A stretch of DNA of 64,000 nucleotides from an uncultured Actinomycetota bacterium (lineage in GTDB: Bacteria > Actinomycetota > Actinomycetes > JAFAQI01 > DASSKL01), in the NCBI GenBank assembly GCA_963728075.1, contig CAVSIP010000005.1, positions 202,151 through 266,150 of the forward strand, in the 5' to 3' direction. The position numbers and the translations under genes were made by a program. Positions 1,879 through 39,391 of this stretch are shown here, piece after piece. Every line of letters begins with the position of its first letter. Position 1 is the first letter of the stretch. A model generated the notes under the pieces. That model did not search any database and was not told where the DNA came from. It was given only the letters and a program-made list of their open reading frames with translations.

Positions 1879-1963
1879 GTGATGTCCTTTCGTCTGACGG
1901 TCGCCGGGTCGCCGATCGGCGGGAACCGGTACCGCGTCCAGTGTCGCACGCGTACGCGCGAGG

Positions 1964-6123: not shown

Positions 6124-7415
6124 TGCCCCTCCTCGCCCTCGACCCGCATGACCGACGCGACCGCGCGGACGACGTCGAGCCCGCGCAGCTCCTCCACCGT
6201 CGCACTGAGCGCGGAGTCCGTCGCGACGTGCGTGACGATCGTCAGCGTCGCGTCGTCACCGCGGCCCTCCTGCCGGACGGTCTGGATGGACACGTCCTGC
6301 TGGCTGAACGCCTGCGCGACAGCGGCGAGGACGCCGGCCTTGTCGGCGACGTCGAGCCGTACGTGGTAGCGGGTGACGGTCTCCCCCATCGGCCGGACGC
6401 GCAGCGACGCGTACGCGGACTCGCCGAACCCGCGCGCGCCGGTCAGCCGGTTGCGGGCCACGGTGACCAGGTCGCCGAGGACGGCGCTCGCCGTCGGCGC
6501 GCCGCCGGCACCCGGGCCGTAGAACATCAGCTGCCCCGCGGCGTCCGCCTCCACGAACACCGCGTTGAACGCCTCGCGGACCGCGGCCAGGGGGTGCGAC
6601 CGGGGAATCATCGCCGGGTGGACCCGTACGCCGACGCTGCGGCCGTCCGCCCCCCGCTCCGCGATGGCCAGCAGCTTCACGACGCTGCCCATCTCGCGCG
6701 CGCTGGCGACGTCAGCAGCGGTGACGTCGGTGATGCCCTCGCGGTGGACGTCGGCGGCGGTGACGCGCGTGTGGAACGCAAGCCCGGCGAGGATGGCCGC
6801 CTTCGCGGCGGCGTCGAAGCCCTCCACGTCCGCGCTCGGGTCGGCCTCGGCGTAGCCCAGGGCCTGGGCCTCCTCCAGCGCCTCGGCGAAGCTGGCACCG
6901 GACTCGTCCATCCGCGTGAGGATGTAGTTCGTCGTCCCGTTGACGATGCCGAGCACCCGGTTCACGCGGTCCCCGGCGAGTGACTCACGGATCGGCCGCA
7001 GGATGGGGATGGCGCCGGCGACGCTCGCCTCGAAGTACAGGTCGGCGTTGCCCTTGCGGGCCGCCTCGAACAGCGTCGAGCCGTCGTCGGCGAGCAGGGC
7101 CTTGTTGGCCGTCACCACCGACGCCCCGCGCTCGAAGGCCGCGAGCAGCAGCCCGCGCGCGGGCTCGATCCCACCGATCACCTCGACGACGACGTCGACG
7201 TCGTCACGCGTCACCAACCCGTGGGCGTCGGCGGTGAACAGGCTGGAGTCGACCGGCAGGTCACGGGCACGCTGCGGCCGCCGGACGGCGATGCCGGCCA
7301 GCTCGAGCGGCGCGCCGACCCGGTGGGCCAGGTCGTCGCGGTGCTCGTGGAGCAGGCGCACGACCTCGCCGCCGACCGTGCCGCATCCGAGCAGGGCCAC
7401 TTTCAGGGCGCTCAT
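6120..7415 (-). CDS. hom: homoserine dehydrogenase
   Basis: [25 protein letters not shown]-binding N-terminus and a C-terminal ACT-like domain. ATG 7415-7413 overlaps the lysA stop (ATGA). The track ORF extension to 7886 lies inside lysA. Confidence 0.95.
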
Positions 7416-8740
7416 CCGGCGTCCAGGCGCATGAGGTCGTCCTCGGTCTCGCGGCGCACGATGACCCGTGCGACACCGTCCCGGACCGCGACCACCGGCG
7501 GTCGCGGTACGTGGTTGTAGTTGCCGGCCATGGAGCGGTGGTACGCGCCACTGGCGGGAACGGCGACGAGGTCGCCGGGCGAGAGGTCCTCGGGCAACGA
7601 GACCTCCCTCACCACGATGTCGCCGGACTCGCAGTGCTTGCCGCAGATCGTCACCATCCGCGCCGGGGCGGCGGACACCCGCGAGGCGAGCACGGCCGTG
7701 TAGTGCGCGCCGTACAGTGCGGTCCGGATGTTGTCGCTCATCCCGCCGTCGACGGCGACGTAGGTACGCAGCCCCGGCAGCTCCTTCACCGTGCCGACCT
7801 CGTACACGGTGACCGTGGTCGGCCCCGCGATCGCGCGGCCGGGCTCGACGGCCAGCCGGGGCACGGCCAGGCCGGCTGCCGCACACTCCTTCGCGACCAC
7901 CGCCGTGAGCCGCTCGACGAACTCCTCGACCGGCAGCGGCGCGTCCTGGGAGGTGTAGGCGATCCCCGTGCCGCCGCCGAGGTTGAGCTCGCTCGTCTCC
8001 ATGCCGTGCTCGTCGCGGAGCGCGGCGAGCAGCCCGACCATGCGGTGCGCGGCGAGCGCGAACCCCTGCGTGTCGAAGATCTGCGAGCCGATGTGCATGT
8101 GCAGGCCGGCGAGCTCCAGGCCGGGGAGCAGGAGGATGCGCGCCACCGCCTCCGCCGCCGCGCCGCTGGCGAGGGAGAAGCCGAACTTCTGGTCCTCCTG
8201 GCCGGTGGCGACGTACTCGTGGGTGTGCGCCTCGACGCCCGGCGTGACCCGGACGACGACCCGCTGGCGCACCCCGGCGGCGTCGGCGGCGTGGGCGAGC
8301 CGGGCGATCTCCTCGAAGGAGTCGACGGCGAAGCGGCCGACGCCGTACGCGACGCCGCGGCGGATCTCGGCCAGCGACTTGTTGTTGCCGTGGAAGATGA
8401 TCCGCTCACCCGGGAAGCCGGCGCGCTCCGCGACCGCCAGCTCGCCCCCGGTCGAGACGTCGAGCGACAGCCCCTCCTCGGCCACCCAGCGCGCGACCTC
8501 CGTGCACAGGAACGCCTTGCCCGCGTAGTAGACGTCCCCCGTGCCCGCGAACGCGTCCCGCCAGGCACGCGCCCGGGACCGGAAGTCCTCCTCGTCGAGG
8601 ACGAGCACCGGCGTGCCGAAACGGTCGGCCAGGTCGCGTACGTCCACGCCACCGACGGTCAGCGCGCCGTCGACGCGGCGGGCGGCCGTACGCGGCCAGA
8701 CGTTGGGCTCGAGGTCAGCGACCTCGGGGTGGGAGCTCAC
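7412..8740 (-). CDS. lysA: diaminopimelate decarboxylase
   Basis: DVYYAGKAFLC (PLP Lys), LNLGGGTGIAY and CGKHCESGDIV motifs of the Orn/DAP/Arg decarboxylase fold. Confidence 0.96.
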   Translation of the reverse strand: MSSHPEVADLEPNVWPRTAARRVDGALTVGGVDVRDLADRFGTPVLVLDEEDFRSRARAWRDAFAGTGDVYYAGKAFLCTEVARWVAEEGLSLDVSTGGELAVAERAGFPGERIIFHGNNKSLAEIRRGVAYGVGRFAVDSFEEIARLAHAADAAGVRQRVVVRVTPGVEAHTHEYVATGQEDQKFGFSLASGAAAEAVARILLLPGLELAGLHMHIGSQIFDTQGFALAAHRMVGLLAALRDEHGMETSELNLGGGTGIAYTSQDAPLPVEEFVERLTAVVAKECAAAGLAVPRLAVEPGRAIAGPTTVTVYEVGTVKELPGLRTYVAVDGGMSDNIRTALYGAHYTAVLASRVSAAPARMVTICGKHCESGDIVVREVSLPEDLSPGDLVAVPASGAYHRSMAGNYNHVPRPPVVAVRDGVARVIVRRETEDDLMRLDAG

Positions 8741-11598: not shown

Positions 11599-11670
11599 GC
11601 CCCCGTAGCTCAGGGGATAGAGCACCGCCCTCCGGAGGCGGGTGCGCAGGTTCGAATCCTGCCGGGGGCA
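11599..11670 (+). tRNA. tRNA-Arg (anticodon CCG)
   Basis: Hand-folded cloverleaf: acceptor GCCCCCG/CGGGGGC, D-arm GCTC-AGGGGATA-GAGC, anticodon arm CCGCC-CTCCGGA-GGCGG (CCG), T-arm GCAGG-TTCGAAT-CCTGC, discriminator A. CCA is not encoded. Confidence 0.9.
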
Positions 11671-34878: not shown

Positions 34879-35175
34879 ATGAGCACGGCGCCGGCACCTC
34901 GCGGCCCGCGGACTCTCGCCGGCGAGGAGGCCGTCGTGGCGCTCGCCATCAACTCCGATCAGCTGCGCATCGCCGAGGAGCTGGCCGACACGGTCATCCG
35001 CGACCTGTTCGGTGTCGGACTGACGCTGCAGCAGGCGCTCGGCCACGTCAGCGGGTCGGCAGCCGAACCGTTGGTCGAGGCGATCGACGGGCTCGACCGG
35101 ATCATCCGCTCGGTCCGCGATGTTGTCTTCGACCTGTCCCGGCCAGCGCGTCCCGTGCGCCCGCCGCGCGACTAG
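34879..35175 (+). CDS. stand-alone HisKA_3-like dimerisation (DHp) domain protein lacking the phospho-acceptor His
   Basis: LRIAEELADTVIRDLFGVGLTLQQAL...LVEAIDGLDRIIRSVRDVVFDL aligns by eye to DevS/DosT-type RIARDLHDHVIQRLFAxGLxLQ, with His replaced by Ala. No ATPase domain follows. Confidence 0.55.
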   Translation: MSTAPAPRGPRTLAGEEAVVALAINSDQLRIAEELADTVIRDLFGVGLTLQQALGHVSGSAAEPLVEAIDGLDRIIRSVRDVVFDLSRPARPVRPPRD

Positions 35176-35450
35176 TCGCGGCCCCACGACCCGAGCCGCC
35201 GCCTGTTCTCGCGGGCTGTCTCGTCCCGTCGCTGCCGGTCAGCGTCATCAACCGAGATCGCCACCAGCGCGATCGCGGCGATCTGCCGAATCTGCGCGTC
35301 GGAGAACTCGCTCAGACTGCCTATCCGCTGCACGACGCGCTCGATGGCGGAGTCGTCCGCGCCCAGGCGCCGGCGGGCTACGTCGCGCCCCTCGTCGACC
35401 GGGTCCCTCCCGGCGCTCGATGATCGACGTGTCCGGCGCTCCGGCGTCAT
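35172..35450 (-). CDS. hypothetical small protein (92 aa)
   Basis: MTPERRTRR...AIERVVQRIGSLSEFSDAQIRQIAAIALVAISVDD has good GC3. Its ATG overlaps (ATGA) the stop of an upstream mini-ORF that starts inside the conserved element at 35635. Confidence 0.45.
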   Translation of the reverse strand: MTPERRTRRSSSAGRDPVDEGRDVARRRLGADDSAIERVVQRIGSLSEFSDAQIRQIAAIALVAISVDDADRQRRDETARENRRRLGSWGRD

Positions 35451-35626
35451 CGGGGTCCGGTTCTGGCCCTGCCCGGACGCGCGCGCCCCGCCCGCTGGGT
35501 CATCGGATCGCGGGCACCCTCGCGAGGACGGGACCGTCGTGCTCGGCGCCGGAGCTCGTCGAGGTAGGCGCGAACTCGGTCGAGGACACTTCGATTGGCC
35601 GAGGTGCCCGTGCTGACGTTGGCGCT

Positions 35627-35667
35627 GGATCCCATCGGGACCACCGATCTCCACTCAGAAGCGAGTG
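35627..35667 (-). promoter_or_regulatory. conserved leader element, copy B
   Basis: Plus strand GGATCCCATCGGGACCACCGATCTCCACTCAGAAGCGAGTG matches copy A at 38307-38345 at 34 of 41 positions. Two hairpins with compensatory changes, a GGAG, and an ATG at 35635-35633 in the second hairpin. Confidence 0.5.
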
Positions 35668-35769
35668 ACCTACGGTCGGACGGACTGGACCGACATGCGT
35701 GAGCCTACTCGGCAACCGCGACACCGTGAGGCGCTCACGTAACGCGGTCGCGTTCACGGAGGACCTGTG

Positions 35770-35937
35770 ATGAGCAAACACGCGGTCGGGGCGCTCTATG
35801 CGCTGTCGATGGCAGCCGTCGTCGTAGGGGTCGATGTGCTGTTCTTCCGACATCACCTGTGGGAGCGACTCGCAGCGAACGTCGGCATCATCCTGCTCTT
35901 CGCCGCGTTCTACTTCCGGTTCCTGAACCGTTCCTGA
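35770..35937 (+). CDS. small membrane protein (55 aa, below ORF-track cutoff)
   Basis: My translation is MSKHAVGALYALSMAAVVVGVDVLFFRHHLWERLAANVGIILLFAAFYFRFLNRS. It has two hydrophobic helices and GC3-biased codons. Confidence 0.45.
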   Translation: MSKHAVGALYALSMAAVVVGVDVLFFRHHLWERLAANVGIILLFAAFYFRFLNRS

Positions 35938-36106
35938 GTGGGCGACCAGCCGGCCGCCTTGCCCGGGTCAGCGGTCCGGCGTAGCCTCGCCACCAGCCGG
36001 CATCGCATGCAGCTGGTCAGGTTGGGAGGCGACGTCGAGCGGACGTGCTGAGCAGACAGCACCCCGGGGTCCAGACTGTGCGCCCCCAACCGTCCGCTCG
36101 GGCAGG

Positions 36107-36859
36107 TCAGCGTCGACCAAGGTCGAGGTCGCCCCTGACGACCATGTCGGCGACGTCGGTGAGCTTCTGGTTGCGGTCGCGAGCGTGACTGCGCAGGGCC
36201 TCGAACGCCCGCTCCATGTCGACGCTGTGCCGCTCGGCCAGTACGCCCTTGGCCTGCTCGATGAGGACGCGGCTGTTCAGGGCGTGCTGCAGCTGCTCGG
36301 CCAGCAGCTCGCTGCGATGCGCGGAACGACGCTGCAGGATGCCGATGGTCGCCACGTCGGCCAGCGCTTGGGCCAGCCGCTGCCGTTCCGTCCCGATCGA
36401 CTGTGCCTCGGCGTGGAAGAGGTTCAGCCCGCCGATCATCTGCCGCCGCAGCCGTAACGGCACCGCCACCACCGACCGGAACCCGGCGCTCAGTGCTGCC
36501 GGGACGAAGACCGGCCAGCGGTGCGCGTCGTCTGCGAGTGAGGGGCTGACGACGGCGTCACCGCGGCGGAAGCAGTCGAGGCAGGGACCCTCGTCGTTCT
36601 GCAGCTGGAAGATCTCCAGCAGGCGAGTCTCCTCACTGGACGAGGCGACGACCTGCAGGGTGCCACGCTGGTCGTCGAGGAGCAGACCCGCAGCCGTCAC
36701 CCCGAGCAGCGACACGCATGCCTCGACCAGCCGGTCGAGCAGCTCGATGACGTCATAGTCGTCGACGAGGGTGTCGGCCAGGGTGACGAACGTGTCGGCC
36801 AGCGATTGTTCCCTGGTCGTCGGCTGGGCTGCACCGCCGTTGGCCGAGTTGTCGCTCAT
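36107..36859 (-). CDS. GAF-ANTAR RNA-binding antiterminator-type regulator
   Basis: N-terminal GAF (DEGPCLDCFRRGDAV...VVAVPLRLRRQMIGGLNLF). C-terminal ANTAR (ALNSRVLIEQAKGVLAERHSVDMERAFEALRSHARDRNQKLTDVA). Confidence 0.9.
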   Translation of the reverse strand: MSDNSANGGAAQPTTREQSLADTFVTLADTLVDDYDVIELLDRLVEACVSLLGVTAAGLLLDDQRGTLQVVASSSEETRLLEIFQLQNDEGPCLDCFRRGDAVVSPSLADDAHRWPVFVPAALSAGFRSVVAVPLRLRRQMIGGLNLFHAEAQSIGTERQRLAQALADVATIGILQRRSAHRSELLAEQLQHALNSRVLIEQAKGVLAERHSVDMERAFEALRSHARDRNQKLTDVADMVVRGDLDLGRR

Positions 36860-37521
36860 GAGTCCTCCGAGGTAAAGCGTAGACGGCGCGCGACCACGTC
36901 AGCGGCGAGCTCACTCAGGGCACGGCCGGAGGCGAACGCTCGGGCGCGCAGCACGACGAACGCCTGCTCGACCGGGATGCCGAGCTGGACCATGACCATT
37001 CCGGTTGCCTGGTGGACTGCCGGTGTGAACGAGCGGACGGAGCGCGCGCCGGCACCGAAGGCACCATCACTGGGGTCGAGTTCCAGCAGCGCGAGCGCCG
37101 CGGCTTGTGCGGCCGACAGCGCCACGGACATCTGCTCGGCCGCGAGCCCGCCGGGACGGATGCGATACAGGTCGAGCACTCCTACTCCGATAGCGCCGAT
37201 GCGAAGCGGCAAGGCGAAGACCGCCCGCACCCCTGCCGCGTCGGCAGCGGCCATGAACAACGGCCAGCGGTCCACCGCGACGCCATCGGGCTCGGCCAGA
37301 TCTGGTACAAGGACCGGGGCGAAGCCGGCAGCGGCGTCGACGCAGGGTCCCTCGCCCAACGTCAGCTGCGCATCTTCGATCTCTGCCGCCACCTCGTCGG
37401 TCGCGCAGACCATCCCCCGGTTACCCGCGGCGGTCACGATGGAGATACCGGCACCGGTCACGTCCAGCAGCTCCACACACATCTGGCAGATGCGTAGCGG
37501 CTGCTGGTCTGGCTCTGTCAT
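36856..37521 (-). CDS. GAF-ANTAR regulator (second, tandem copy)
   Basis: GEGPCVDAAAGFAPVLVPDL...VFALPLRIGAIGVGVLDLY (GAF) and AVHQATGMVMVQLGIPVEQAFVVLRARAFASGRALSELA (ANTAR). The stop overlaps the next start. The start is set at ATG 37521. Confidence 0.85.
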   Translation of the reverse strand: MTEPDQQPLRICQMCVELLDVTGAGISIVTAAGNRGMVCATDEVAAEIEDAQLTLGEGPCVDAAAGFAPVLVPDLAEPDGVAVDRWPLFMAAADAAGVRAVFALPLRIGAIGVGVLDLYRIRPGGLAAEQMSVALSAAQAAALALLELDPSDGAFGAGARSVRSFTPAVHQATGMVMVQLGIPVEQAFVVLRARAFASGRALSELAADVVARRLRFTSEDS

Positions 37522-37686
37522 GGCCGCGGCCGGCATCCACCCGATGACGAGGATGCCGGCGCCGGGCGGAAAGTCACCGACTCCTTCCTGGTACCCCCGG
37601 ACCCGAGTGGGCATGAACAGGTCGTATGTCGGTACGGTCCGGACGGCCGCCGTAGTCGACCCACCCGCCCCCGAAGGGTCGATGCC

Positions 37687-38106
37687 ATGTCCAGCCCATT
37701 GCGGCAGTCCCCGACCTGCGCGCCGGCCGCGACCGCGACCCAGGTACGTCTGCACCTGGCGCCCCACGGACGGTCCTGCCGTGCGGCCCGGCAGGCGGTA
37801 CAGGCGTTCTGCGCCGACAACGGGATCGCGGCCCTGTCCGAGGACGGCGAGCTGCTCACGTCCGAGCTCGTCGCCAACGCGGTCGAGCATGCGAAGGGCC
37901 AGATCCTGCTGGTCCTGACAGACGGAGACGACATGCTCACCGTCAGCGTCTGCGACCAGTCATCGGCTCCACGCGGACTGCTCGGCCACCTCCCGGACGA
38001 CCTCGCCGAGCGCGGGCGCGGGACGTTCGTGGTCGCCACCCTGGCCGGCGCATGGGGCACCGCACCATGCGCCCACGGCAGGTGCGTCTGGTTCCGACTG
38101 CCCTGA
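37687..38106 (+). CDS. RsbW/SpoIIAB-like anti-sigma factor serine kinase (HATPase_c_2)
   Basis: AARQAVQAFC...ELLTSELVANAVEHA...LTVSVCDQS...ERGRGTFVVATLAGAWG is typical of single-domain anti-sigma kinases. Confidence 0.8.
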   Translation: MSSPLRQSPTCAPAATATQVRLHLAPHGRSCRAARQAVQAFCADNGIAALSEDGELLTSELVANAVEHAKGQILLVLTDGDDMLTVSVCDQSSAPRGLLGHLPDDLAERGRGTFVVATLAGAWGTAPCAHGRCVWFRLP

Positions 38107-38118
38107 CCGTCCGACCCG

Positions 38119-38256
38119 CTACTTGGCGCGCTGATTCGGGTGGACGATCGCGGCGATCTCCGGCGCAGCACTCGGCGGTGTCTGCCCCTTGGTCTTCTTG
38201 TTCCGGTCCGCCTTCGGCTTGCGCACCTCGCGCCCGCCCTTGTTCTTGCTGGCCAT
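38119..38256 (-). CDS. small basic protein (45 aa)
   Basis: MASKNKGGREVRKPKADRNKKTKGQTPPSAAPEIAAIVHPNQRAK. ATG follows AGGAGAA and shares its A with the TGA of a 19-codon upstream ORF. Confidence 0.5.
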   Translation of the reverse strand: MASKNKGGREVRKPKADRNKKTKGQTPPSAAPEIAAIVHPNQRAK

Positions 38257-38306
38257 CACTTCTCCTGACCGACGTCGGAGCGCCTCAGGCGACGACACAC
38301 GCGTTC

Positions 38307-38345
38307 GGGTCCCACCGGGACCGCCAATCTCCACTCGCAAGCGAG
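38307..38345 (-). promoter_or_regulatory. conserved leader element, copy A
   Basis: Plus strand GGGTCCCACCGGGACCGCCAATCTCCACTCGCAAGCGAG(CG). Same architecture as copy B, with GTG at 38315-38313 in the position of copy B's ATG. A TAGGCT -10-like box lies upstream at 38378-38383. Confidence 0.5.
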
Positions 38346-38394
38346 CGGGCGAGAACCCCACGTTGGGGCTGGGACAGAGCCTACCAACGATGTG

Positions 38395-38550
38395 CTATGC
38401 CGCGCGTCTCGTGATGATCCACGTGAGGTCGGCCGGCTCGCGGCGGAAGATGAGCTCCGATCGAGGGCCGGTCTCGTCGAGCAGGTCGATGAGCAAGGTC
38501 AGCGGCATCCGGGTACGCAGCCACTCCATGGGGTCGGGCAGCAGGCTCAT
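38395..38550 (-). CDS. hypothetical small protein (51 aa)
   Basis: MSLLPDPMEWLRTRMPLTLLIDLLDETGPRSELIFRREPADLTWIITRRAA. ATG is preceded by GGGGAGG. Confidence 0.4.
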   Translation of the reverse strand: MSLLPDPMEWLRTRMPLTLLIDLLDETGPRSELIFRREPADLTWIITRRAA

Positions 38551-38686
38551 AGGAACCTCCCCTCGCCCTCTGTGTATCGATCCCGGCAGACCGCCAGCAC
38601 AGACCCGAAAGGGTGACACAGCGCCGCAACCCGGGTATGCGGGCACGAGCAGTCCAGCCGCGCCGACGCACATCTTGGAGGGTCAG

Positions 38687-39391
38687 ATGGAGGTCCACTC
38701 GCAACCGTTGGCATGGATCGAGGCGATCGGCTGGTTCAGCCTCTCGCTCGCGTTCGCCAGCGCGCTCGCGATCCTCTTCGACATCTTCGTGCGCGGCTAC
38801 CGCCAGAAGATGGCGATCATGGACCTCGTCTACCCGATCACCGCCCTGTACTGGGGGCCGGTGGCGGCCTGGTTCTACTTCAAGCACGGCAAGCGCACGT
38901 CGAGGCCGGTCATCGAGAGCCTGGGCGAGCCCGACCCGGACGCGATGCCGCGCTGGAACATCCTCGGCAAGGCGGTGAGCCACTGCGGCGCGGGCTGCAC
39001 GCTCGGCGACATCGCCGGCGAGTGGCTCGTGCACTCCCTCGGGCTGATGGCCTTCGGCACGGCGCTGGTGGCCGACTTCGGCATGGACTTCGCGTGGGCC
39101 TGGACCCTCGGCATCGCCTTCCAGTACTTCACGATCGTGCCGATGCGCGACATCGGCAGGCTGCAGGGCATCTGGGCCGCGATCAAGGTGGACACGCTGT
39201 CGATCGTGGCGTTCCAGGCAGGCCTGTTCGGCGGGATGGCCATCTACCAGGAGCTGATCTGGCAGCCGCCGCTGAGCAAGACCAGCGCCACCTACTGGAT
39301 GATGATGCAGCTGGCGATGATCCTCGGCTTCTTCACCGCGATGCCGGTCAACAACTGGCTGATCAACAAGGGCCTCAAGGAGAAGATGTAG
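38687..39391 (+). CDS. DUF4396 family membrane protein
   Basis: ATG after GGAGGG. Multi-TM; AVSHCGAGCTLGDIAGEW and FQYFTIVPMR motifs recall DUF4396. Confidence 0.78.
   Translation: MEVHSQPLAWIEAIGWFSLSLAFASALAILFDIFVRGYRQKMAIMDLVYPITALYWGPVAAWFYFKHGKRTSRPVIESLGEPDPDAMPRWNILGKAVSHCGAGCTLGDIAGEWLVHSLGLMAFGTALVADFGMDFAWAWTLGIAFQYFTIVPMRDIGRLQGIWAAIKVDTLSIVAFQAGLFGGMAIYQELIWQPPLSKTSATYWMMMQLAMILGFFTAMPVNNWLINKGLKEKM

What the first reader, a model, noticed from the sequence alone, without database searches (positions are those of the whole stretch)
38256..38384. Copy A: element-embedded GTG opens a 19-codon uORF whose TGA shares a base with the ATG of a 45-aa basic protein
From GTG 38315 the frame reads GPERVCRRLRRSDVGQEK-stop. 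The stop (38258-38256) overlaps the ATG (38256-38254) of MASKNKGGREVRKPKADRNKK... In copy B, the ATG at 35635 opens a 62-codon ORF whose TGA overlaps, as ATGA, the ATG of the 92-aa ORF 35172..35450. The same stop-start coupling behind the same conserved element in two loci argues for uORF-mediated coupling rather than chance. All four ORFs are small and would be missed by standard annotation.
Basis: partly seen in the sequence, partly recalled or inferred. Interest (0 to 1): 0.6.

Follow-up and report, generated by a model that had tools for sequence, protein, structure and literature searches.

The report
Start codon inside a conserved leader RNA
The GTG sits in a conserved, undescribed actinobacterial mRNA leader that holds the ribosome-binding site and start codon in hairpins; here it opens a short unconserved reading frame ending on the ATG of a conserved 45-residue basic protein, which may pass the leader's control on to that protein.

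Summary
On the minus strand, GTG 38315-38313 opens 19 codons. Its TGA (38258-38256) shares a base with the ATG of a 45-aa basic protein (SBP). In copy B, ATG 35635 opens 62 codons that end in ATGA on the 92-aa ORF.

The shared element is a roughly 70-nt leader RNA with three hairpins. P1 is variable, P2 pairs an anti-SD with the SD, and P3 carries the AUG or GUG at its loop. I found 33 distinct copies in Actinomycetota. All have ATG or GTG at that position. In 11 independent lineages that codon is in frame with a full protein (DoxX, ABC ATPase, VOC, LapA-like, STAS), so it is a real start codon.

SBP, ORF1 and ORF3 are under purifying selection. Copy B is therefore an operon of small genes rather than a regulatory uORF. 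ORF1 reads through a deleted SBP remnant to an ATGA junction with ORF3, which has no SD. That is good evidence for coupling there.

Coupling is weaker in copy A. The 19-codon peptide is not conserved, SBP has its own strong SD, and the same GTGATG occurs in a leaderless SBP locus that has no uORF.

GAF-ANTAR genes lie beside the leader in at least five loci, which makes them the likely regulators. No Rfam family matches the leader. An earlier agent of this scan had already described it on this same window.

The parts
38378..38383 (-). -10-like box TAGGCT of copy A. The predicted transcript start lies about 7-10 nt downstream.
   Evidence: A TAnnnT / G.GTA..CT box sits at the same distance from P1 in all window-type leaders. 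Inferred, not mapped.
38356..38368 (-). P1 hairpin of leader copy A (CCCC-AACGU-GGGG)
   Evidence: All four P1 pairs show double changes across 33 leaders. The loop is 5 nt, with A at position 1 in 27 of 30.
38331..38348 (-). P2 hairpin of copy A (CCGCUCG-CUUG-CGAGUGG). Its 3' arm runs into the purine-rich SD-like GGAGAU.
   Evidence: 96.5% of P2 cells are paired, and 4 of 7 pairs have compensatory changes.
38323..38330 (-). Conserved unpaired linker AGAUUGGC (consensus AGAUnGGn)
   Evidence: AGAU.GG. is invariant in all 33 leaders, though partly fixed by the search pattern.
38308..38322 (-). P3 hairpin GGUCCC-GGU-GGGACC. The start codon straddles the loop and the 3' arm.
   Evidence: P3 is invariant in the set, but that is largely ascertainment because it was part of the search pattern.
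38313..38315 (-). GTG start codon embedded in P3
   Evidence: The homologous position is ATG in 31 and GTG in 2 of 33 leaders. Two DoxX genes start with GTG in frame (L041, L081).
38256..38315 (-). 19-codon short ORF (V/M-GPERVCRRLRRSDVGQEK) plus its TGA
   Evidence: The peptide body is not similar to ORF1 in winB or L023, nor to the 46-codon ORF of L004; the one nominal hit, to L003, is not corroborated.
38261..38266 (-). SBP's own Shine-Dalgarno AGGAGA, 4 nt before the ATG
   Evidence: A strong SD precedes SBP in all seven homologous loci.
38119..38256 (-). SBP: 45-aa basic mini-protein MASKNKGGREVRKPK...
   Evidence: Seven homologues give dN/dS 0.12-0.45, with one pair at 0.63. Database relatives P0002-P0005. 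Atlas clusters of 44-47-aa hypothetical proteins. No Pfam family above cut-off.
35628..35694 (-). Leader copy B: P1 35675-35694, P2 35651-35668, linker 35643-35650, P3 35628-35642, with ATG at 35635-35633
   Evidence: 57 bits against model R1.
35447..35635 (-). ORF1 (62 codons): a conserved mini-protein core followed by read-through of a deleted SBP remnant. It ends in ATGA.
   Evidence: Homologues in L003 and L023 give dN/dS 0.19-0.36. The alignment shows two deletions that removed the SBP start and its 3' half.
35172..35450 (-). ORF3 (92 aa): conserved mini-protein with no SD, coupled by ATGA
   Evidence: dN/dS 0.12-0.32. There is no GGAG-like SD within 25 nt upstream in winB, L003 or L023.
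36107..37890 (-). Two tandem GAF-ANTAR regulator genes between the two leader copies (36856-37890 and 36107-36859). These are the candidate trans-acting partners.
   Evidence: Pfam GAF and ANTAR domains. Orthologues lie next to leaders in G001, G093 and G420, and a more distant GAF-ANTAR relative (about 33% identity) lies next to the leader in L042.
37687..38106 (+). RsbW-like anti-sigma serine kinase, convergent on SBP
   Evidence: Pfam HATPase_c_2. Homologues lie near the leader and SBP in G093, G001 and L071.

Best explanation
The element is the translation-initiation region of a conserved, roughly 70-nt actinobacterial 5' leader RNA. P1 is a variable hairpin. P2 pairs a CCUCC-like anti-SD with the SD. 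An invariant linker AGAUnGGn follows. P3 (GGUCCC-GAU-GGGACC) presents the AUG or GUG at its loop. Ribosomes initiate at that codon (shown comparatively). The leader behaves as a portable cassette fused in frame to different stress-type genes. Initiation is probably gated by an RNA-binding regulator, most likely the GAF-ANTAR proteins encoded next to it (inferred from gene neighbourhood). In copy A, the ORF that starts in the leader has shrunk to 19 unconserved codons. Its UGA overlaps the AUG of SBP, so ribosomes admitted by the leader terminate on SBP's start and can reinitiate or open the SD region. This would pass the leader's control to SBP (inferred). In copy B, the leader's ORF is the conserved mini-protein ORF1. 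After deletion of SBP, it reads through the remnant to an ATGA junction that feeds the SD-less ORF3, which is classical translational coupling within a mini-protein operon.
For: The leader is real and structured. There are 33 distinct copies, 96% of cells are paired, and 8 pairs have compensatory changes against 3.9 in shuffles (0 of 500 shuffles reach the observed value). The slid controls fall to 42-57% paired. The start codon is real. The N before TG was left free in the search pattern, yet it is A or G in every true leader and C or T in four of the six chance hits of the metagenome scan. The ORF from that codon is a full DoxX, ABC_tran, Glyoxalase, LapA_dom or STAS protein in 11 independent lineages with N-terminal linkers of different lengths. 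The ABC ATPase begins MGPRTTSSGQ-KIEVRNLTKRYG, which leaves no alternative start. SBP, ORF1 and ORF3 are under purifying selection. Five of the six cistron junctions in these mini-operons overlap or lie within 2 nt; the ORF1-SBP junction of L003 has a 22-nt gap. ORF3 never has an SD. In copy B the ATGA junction was kept after two deletions removed SBP. The copy A architecture (leader, unrelated short ORF, TGATG, SBP) recurs in another family, with 46 codons and the same frame (L004/L015). For the ANTAR link: GAF-ANTAR genes lie 0.2-6 kb from the leader in G000, G001, G093, G420 (VOC context) and L042/L061 (DoxX context), in genomes with only 3-13 ANTAR genes per 3-5 Mb. A partial GAF hit at the contig end of L049, a second DoxX context, may be a sixth case.
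Against: In copy A, SBP has a strong SD of its own and exists elsewhere as a stand-alone gene without the leader (L068-L071). The same aGTGATGg junction in L070 closes a frame with no start codon. The predicted SD-masking hairpin inside the copy A short ORF is no more stable than shuffles (z = +0.46) and is not conserved in L004. Only two independent loci share the copy A architecture, and chance gives roughly 0.2 per locus for the right frame with no stop (my estimate). The leader does not meet the defining loop features of ANTAR targets. No ANTAR gene is near the leader in the four Acidimicrobiia genomes or in G089.
Confidence: 0.55

Rival explanations
1. In copy A the short ORF is an evolutionary relic. 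The leader supplies only a promoter and 5' end, SBP is translated independently from its own strong SD, and the TGATG overlap is inherited spacer sequence with no coupling role.
For: There is a strong AGGAGA 4 nt before the ATG. SBP works as a leaderless-of-element gene in L068-L071. L070 has the same GTGATG without any uORF. The uORF peptides are not conserved, and no conserved SD-masking structure was found.
Against: The complete leader, with SD, start codon and both flanking hairpins, is kept intact upstream of SBP in two different families. The spacers differ by 81 nt (a multiple of 3) and are otherwise unrelated, and both frames end exactly on the ATG. If the leader's start were irrelevant to SBP there would be no reason to keep it.
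Confidence: 0.33
2. The leader is gated by something other than an ANTAR protein. It could be a small riboswitch for a stress metabolite or second messenger, or a structure opened by temperature or by the ribosome itself.
For: The unpaired linker AGAUnGGn and the P2 loop CU are invariant across two classes of Actinomycetota, as in ligand pockets. ANTAR hexaloops are absent. There is no ANTAR gene near the Acidimicrobiia copies. The controlled genes are diverse stress-type genes, often behind SigF/SigB-like promoters.
Against: The architecture is three simple hairpins with no multi-helix junction. P2 and P3 are GC-rich and too stable for a typical thermosensor (inference). GAF-ANTAR genes are strongly enriched next to the leader in four different gene contexts.
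Confidence: 0.2
3. The conserved core is a DNA site. The perfect palindrome GGTCCC-N3-GGGACC would be an operator for a transcription factor, and the start codon and hairpins would be incidental.
For: P3 is a perfect inverted repeat that never varies in the set.
Against: Its invariance is largely due to the search pattern. It always has one orientation relative to the gene, lies about 60 nt downstream of the -10 box, always contains ATG or GTG in frame with the protein, and is flanked by two hairpins with compensatory changes.
Confidence: 0.05
4. Everything is chance: random open frames in GC-rich DNA.
For: Open frames of 19-62 codons are common at about 70% G+C. The RNA folds of the single sequences are no more stable than shuffles.
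Against: There are 33 conserved leaders with covariation, dN/dS below 1 for all three mini-proteins, and in-frame fusion to 11 protein lineages.
Confidence: 0.02

Closest known systems
ANTAR-target RNAs of Actinobacteria (Mehta and Ramesh 2021, PMC8164766; mycobacterial PdtaR/Rv1626 targets)
   Same: Both have tandem hairpins separated by a short linker in the 5' leader, overlapping the RBS and start codon, and both would repress or gate translation. ANTAR-domain genes lie next to the leader in at least five loci. The P1 loop starts with A in 27 of 30 copies and has G at position 4 in 16 of 30.
   Different: The loops are 5 nt (P1), 4 nt (P2, CUNN) and 3 nt (P3), not hexaloops. P2 and P3 lack A1/G4. 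There is a third hairpin holding the start codon and an invariant linker. The neighbouring regulators are GAF-ANTAR rather than REC-ANTAR. Binding is untested.
Translational coupling at overlapping stop/start codons (termination-reinitiation at AUGA/UGAUG; from my knowledge of the bacterial literature)
   Same: There are UGAUG (copy A) and AUGA (copy B) junctions. The downstream cistron ORF3 lacks an SD, and the overlap is conserved in three genomes.
   Different: In copy A the downstream gene has a strong SD, so coupling is not required. The upstream ORF there is unconserved and only 19 codons long.
Regulatory leader peptides / uORFs (e.g. attenuation or arrest peptides)
   Same: A short ORF lies in a structured 5' leader upstream of the regulated gene.
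   Different: There is no conserved peptide, no diagnostic codon run, and no terminator or antiterminator alternative. In most loci the 'uORF' is simply the N-terminus of the regulated protein.
ANTAR-linked ~165-nt leader of Gaiellales noted earlier in this scan (e1-3939850)
   Same: It is an undescribed SD-hiding leader in soil Actinomycetota, duplicated around an ANTAR gene.
   Different: The sequence and length differ, and it was not checked here.

Membership tests
ANTAR-target RNA | Two stem-loops in tandem separated by a 2-25-nt linker | tested here: met
   P1 and P2 are separated by about 6 nt, and P2 and P3 by 8 nt. Pairing is supported by covariation. Definition taken from PMC8164766.
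ANTAR-target RNA | Hexanucleotide loops on both stems (one point variation allowed) | tested here: not met
   P1 loop is 5 nt, P2 loop is 4 nt (6 only if the closing G-C pair is opened), and P3 loop is 3 nt.
ANTAR-target RNA | A at loop position 1 and G at position 4 in each loop | tested here: not met
   P1 has A1 in 27 of 30 and G4 in 16 of 30 (U in 13). The P2 loop is CUNN and the P3 loop is GAU.
ANTAR-target RNA | Overlaps RBS or start codon, or a terminator | tested here: met
   The P2 3' arm contains the SD, and P3 contains the AUG or GUG.
ANTAR-target RNA | Bound by an ANTAR-domain protein | not testable with these tools
   Only neighbourhood evidence is available: GAF-ANTAR genes lie within 0.2-6 kb in G000, G001, G093, G420 and L042.
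Termination-reinitiation coupled cistrons | Stop of the upstream ORF overlaps or abuts the start of the downstream ORF | tested here: met
   TGATG at 38258-38254 and ATGA at 35450-35447. The same is seen in L004, L003 and L023.
Termination-reinitiation coupled cistrons | The upstream ORF is translated | tested here: inconclusive
   The start codon is conserved and used by full-length proteins elsewhere.
Termination-reinitiation coupled cistrons | The downstream start depends on upstream translation (weak or no SD) | tested here: inconclusive
   Met for ORF3 in copy B, which has no SD in three genomes. Not met for SBP in copy A, which has a strong AGGAGA.
Regulatory leader peptide / uORF | Conserved peptide or codon content of the short ORF | tested here: not met
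   The copy A and L004 short-ORF bodies are unrelated to each other and to ORF1 of winB and L023; one nominal hit (winA versus L003) is not corroborated.
Any Rfam 15 family | Covariance-model match | tested here: not met
   No hit at gathering score in the window, and none on the leaders at E up to 10 in 35100-38700.

The most novel reading that the evidence does not exclude
The leader is the cognate RNA target of a subfamily of GAF-ANTAR regulators. It would be a non-canonical, three-hairpin ANTAR site that carries its own SD and start codon. As a portable cassette (N-terminal tag MGP...), it would place unrelated stress genes, often behind SigF/SigB-type promoters, under one translational switch. 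Where the fused ORF has decayed (copy A), control would be relayed to the next gene by stop-start overlap.
Probability: 0.35. Interest if true: 0.7.

Novelty: new variant of a known kind. Interest (0 to 1): 0.5.

Why it matters
If the leader is a true translational switch, it defines a new RNA family that Rfam lacks, in poorly studied soil Actinomycetota. It would widen the known sequence rules for ANTAR-type recognition. It would also show that one start-codon-bearing cassette is reused on many genes. For annotation, it fixes the true start codons (MGP...) of DoxX, ABC, VOC, LapA-like and STAS proteins, and it reveals three conserved mini-proteins (SBP, ORF1, ORF3) that gene callers usually miss. 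The specific stop-start overlaps are ordinary operon features.

Tried and rejected
- Rfam gave nothing on the element at gathering score or at E up to 10.
- An SD-masking hairpin inside the copy A short ORF is predicted at -21 kcal/mol, but it is no better than shuffles and is not conserved in L004. I dropped it as evidence.
- The copy A short ORF does not look like a decayed ORF1. Local alignments are not above shuffles for winB or L023, and one nominal hit to L003 is not corroborated.
- A pseudoknot between the P1 or P2 loops and the linker GAGAU shows no covariation by inspection.
- The linker AUyGG pairing with CCGAU of P3 is broken in L010 and L014.
- The CM hit L080 is antisense to the 3' end of a tRNA-Asp gene. 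A complementarity search in the window's own genome matched its control counts, so this is chance.
- The weak CM hits L024-L031 have mismatched stems and score far below the true leaders, so I treat them as false.
- I looked for more copy A-type loci in G093's family (18 genomes) and found none. Only 5 SBP relatives exist in the protein collection.
- P3 covariation cannot be judged, because P3 was part of every search pattern.
- Complex prediction was not used, because it does not take RNA.

Full report
**Observation.** On the minus strand, GTG 38315-38313 opens a frame that reads GPERVCRRLRRSDVGQEK and stops at TGA 38258-38256. The final A of that stop is the first base of ATG 38256-38254, which opens a 45-aa basic ORF, MASKNKGGREVRKPKADRNKK... 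(38256-38119). A strong AGGAGA sits at 38266-38261. In copy B, ATG 35635 opens 62 codons. Its TGA overlaps, as ATGA, the ATG (35450) of a 92-aa ORF. The shared 27-nt core occurs twice in the window, with 0 expected in shuffles, and twice in the 3.4-Mb genome. The description is correct.

**What the element is.**
- Exact-pattern scans of one genome per species and of metagenome contigs, plus genome searches, gave 33 distinct true copies. They come from Actinomycetes and Acidimicrobiia, mostly soil and peat MAGs. A 34th was found later in G416.
- The copies align into a roughly 70-nt unit that begins about 8 nt after a -10-like box. P1 is a variable hairpin. P2 has a 5' arm that is CCUCC-like and a 3' arm that is the SD region. 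An invariant linker AGAUnGGn follows. P3 is GGUCCC-GAU-GGGACC.
- On the 33-sequence alignment, 96% of cells are paired. Eight pairs carry compensatory changes against 3.9 in shuffles (0 of 500 shuffles reach the observed value). Sliding the partners drops pairing to 42-57%.
- P1 and P2 carry the covariation. P3 never varies, but it was part of every search pattern, so that says little.
- No Rfam family matches.

**The embedded start codon is real.**
- The base before TG was left free in the patterns. It is A (31) or G (2) in every true leader, whereas four of the six chance hits of the metagenome scan carry C or T there. The second G416 copy has loop CGU, which again gives GUG.
- The ORF from that codon begins MGP or MGS (MGR in L043). 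It runs in frame into full proteins: DoxX-like, an ABC ATPase, a VOC/glyoxalase, LapA-domain membrane proteins and a STAS protein.
- The N-terminal linkers differ in length between 11 lineages yet always keep the frame. The chance of that is roughly (1/3)^11 (my estimate).
- The ABC ATPase reads MGPRTTSSGQ-KIEVRNLTKRYG, which leaves no other plausible start.
- The exceptions look like assembly frameshifts (L013, with several inside the DoxX gene itself) or decayed loci (L011, L012, L037).

**The small ORFs.**
- The ancestral arrangement is seen in L003 (same family as the window) and L023 (same order). It runs leader, ORF1 (43-50 aa, core L.DRVRAYLDELRRRA), SBP (44-45 aa), then ORF3 (83-92 aa).
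- All three are under purifying selection. dN/dS is 0.12-0.45 for SBP (one pair at 0.63), 0.19-0.36 for ORF1 and 0.12-0.32 for ORF3.
- SBP always has a strong SD. ORF3 never has one and always overlaps its upstream cistron by ATGA or GTGA.
- Window copy B is this operon after two deletions removed the SBP start and its 3' half. ORF1 now reads through the remnant and still ends in ATGA on ORF3. That is good comparative evidence that ORF3 needs ribosomes delivered from upstream.
- Copy B is therefore an operon of mini-protein genes with classical coupling, not a regulatory uORF.

**Copy A.**
- Here the leader's ORF is 19 codons with no detectable relation to ORF1.
- The same layout exists in one other genome, from a different family (L004 = L015). 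It runs leader, 46 unrelated codons, cagTGAtgg, then an SBP that is the closest relative (76%) of the window's SBP.
- Both short ORFs keep the frame that ends on the ATG although the spacers differ by 81 nt. I estimate the chance at about 0.2 per locus, so this is suggestive only.
- Several points argue against a dedicated coupling device. SBP has its own SD. SBP occurs elsewhere with a roughly 100-nt UTR and no leader (L068-L071). L070 has the same aGTGATGg junction, but the frame closed by that TGA contains no start codon in 40 open codons. The hairpin that could mask SBP's SD in the window is no more stable than shuffles and is absent in L004.
- I therefore rate functional coupling in copy A at a little under even odds.
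- The argument for coupling is indirect. The intact leader, with SD, start codon and hairpins, is retained upstream of SBP in two families. That is hard to explain if initiation at the leader did nothing for SBP.

**Who gates the leader.**
- Two GAF-ANTAR genes lie between the two window copies.
- Their orthologues (50-68% identity) lie near the leader in three other genomes: 5-6 kb away in G001; 2-4.5 kb away in G093, together with two further GAF-ANTAR paralogues and an RsbW-like kinase; and 0.3 kb beyond the leader-fused VOC gene in G420. A more distant GAF-ANTAR gene (about 33% identity) lies divergently upstream of a leader-DoxX gene in L042/L061. A partial GAF hit at the contig end of L049, a second DoxX locus, may be a sixth case.
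- These genomes have 3-13 ANTAR genes in 3-5 Mb, so each such proximity has a chance of about 0.002-0.01 (my estimate).
- No ANTAR gene is near the leader in four Acidimicrobiia genomes or in G089.
- The defining features of ANTAR targets are hexaloops with A1 and G4 (PMC8164766), and the leader does not meet them. The P1 loop has 5 nt (A1 in 27 of 30, G4 in 16 of 30), the P2 loop is CUNN and the P3 loop is GAU.
- I therefore do not file the leader as an ANTAR-target RNA. I propose that it works like one: protein binding to the tandem hairpins would control access to the SD and start codon. This is inference from gene neighbourhood only.

**Context.** Many leaders sit behind GTTTC-N15/16-GGG(T/C)AT, the SigF/SigB-type promoter consensus as I know it from the literature. 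The fused genes, and the nearby RsbW-like and STAS genes, fit a general-stress regulon. The window's own copies have only a G.GTA..CT -10-like box.

**Relation to earlier notes.**
- An earlier agent of this scan (e1-3632403) had already described, on this same window, the two repeats as the conserved start region of a split mini-protein operon, with ANTAR targets as the closest known system. My independent work agrees.
- It adds four things: the fusion to full-length proteins in 11 lineages, the deletion history of copy B, the leaderless SBP loci that weaken the copy A coupling argument, and the recurrent GAF-ANTAR neighbourhood.
- A different ANTAR-linked leader was noted in another genome (e1-3939850). 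I did not check it.

**Limits.** P3 conservation is ascertainment-biased. Only two loci have the copy A layout. Regulator binding is untested.

Noticed in passing
L037, L038, L041-L043, L047, L050, L053, L057, L011 (about 30-50 nt upstream of P1): Many leaders are preceded by GTTTC-N15/16-GGGTAT or GGGCAT, which is the SigF/SigB-type promoter consensus. The window's two copies have only a G.GTA..CT -10-like box and no GTTT.
   Followed up: partly
window 36107-37890; G001:C66:88085-89607; G093:C6:103683-107554; G420:C58:28221-28589; L042:1815-3182: GAF-ANTAR genes recur within 0.2-6 kb of the leader in four different gene contexts (SBP operon, SBP alone, VOC, DoxX). An RsbW-like kinase often lies nearby.
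   Followed up: partly
window 35447-35520 (-): The C-terminal 20 or so codons of ORF1 in copy B are the out-of-frame remnant of a deleted SBP gene. Two deletions are seen relative to L003 and L023.
   Followed up: yes
L013 (G416:C3) 6834-7600 of the oriented locus: The DoxX gene behind this leader carries several frameshifts. This is probably long-read assembly error rather than a pseudogene, because sister MAGs are intact.
   Followed up: no
G416:C2:170400-170470 (L081): One Acidimicrobiaceae genome carries two leader-DoxX paralogues. The second has P3 loop CGU, which gives a GUG start in frame.
   Followed up: yes
window 38395-38550 (-): A 51-aa ORF (MSLLPDPMEWLRTRMPLTLLIDLLDE...) ends 8-12 nt before the -10-like box of copy A. 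It has no Pfam family, and its conservation was not checked.
   Followed up: no
window 1899-1935 (-) and 11599-11670 (+): Rfam hits at gathering score: an L31-Actinobacteria ribosomal protein leader and a tRNA.
   Followed up: no
L071-L073 (Logan contigs): A leaderless SBP is followed by an RsbW-like HATPase_c_2 gene and faces Rdx and ferritin/Dps-like genes, which gives the locus a stress-regulon flavour.
   Followed up: no
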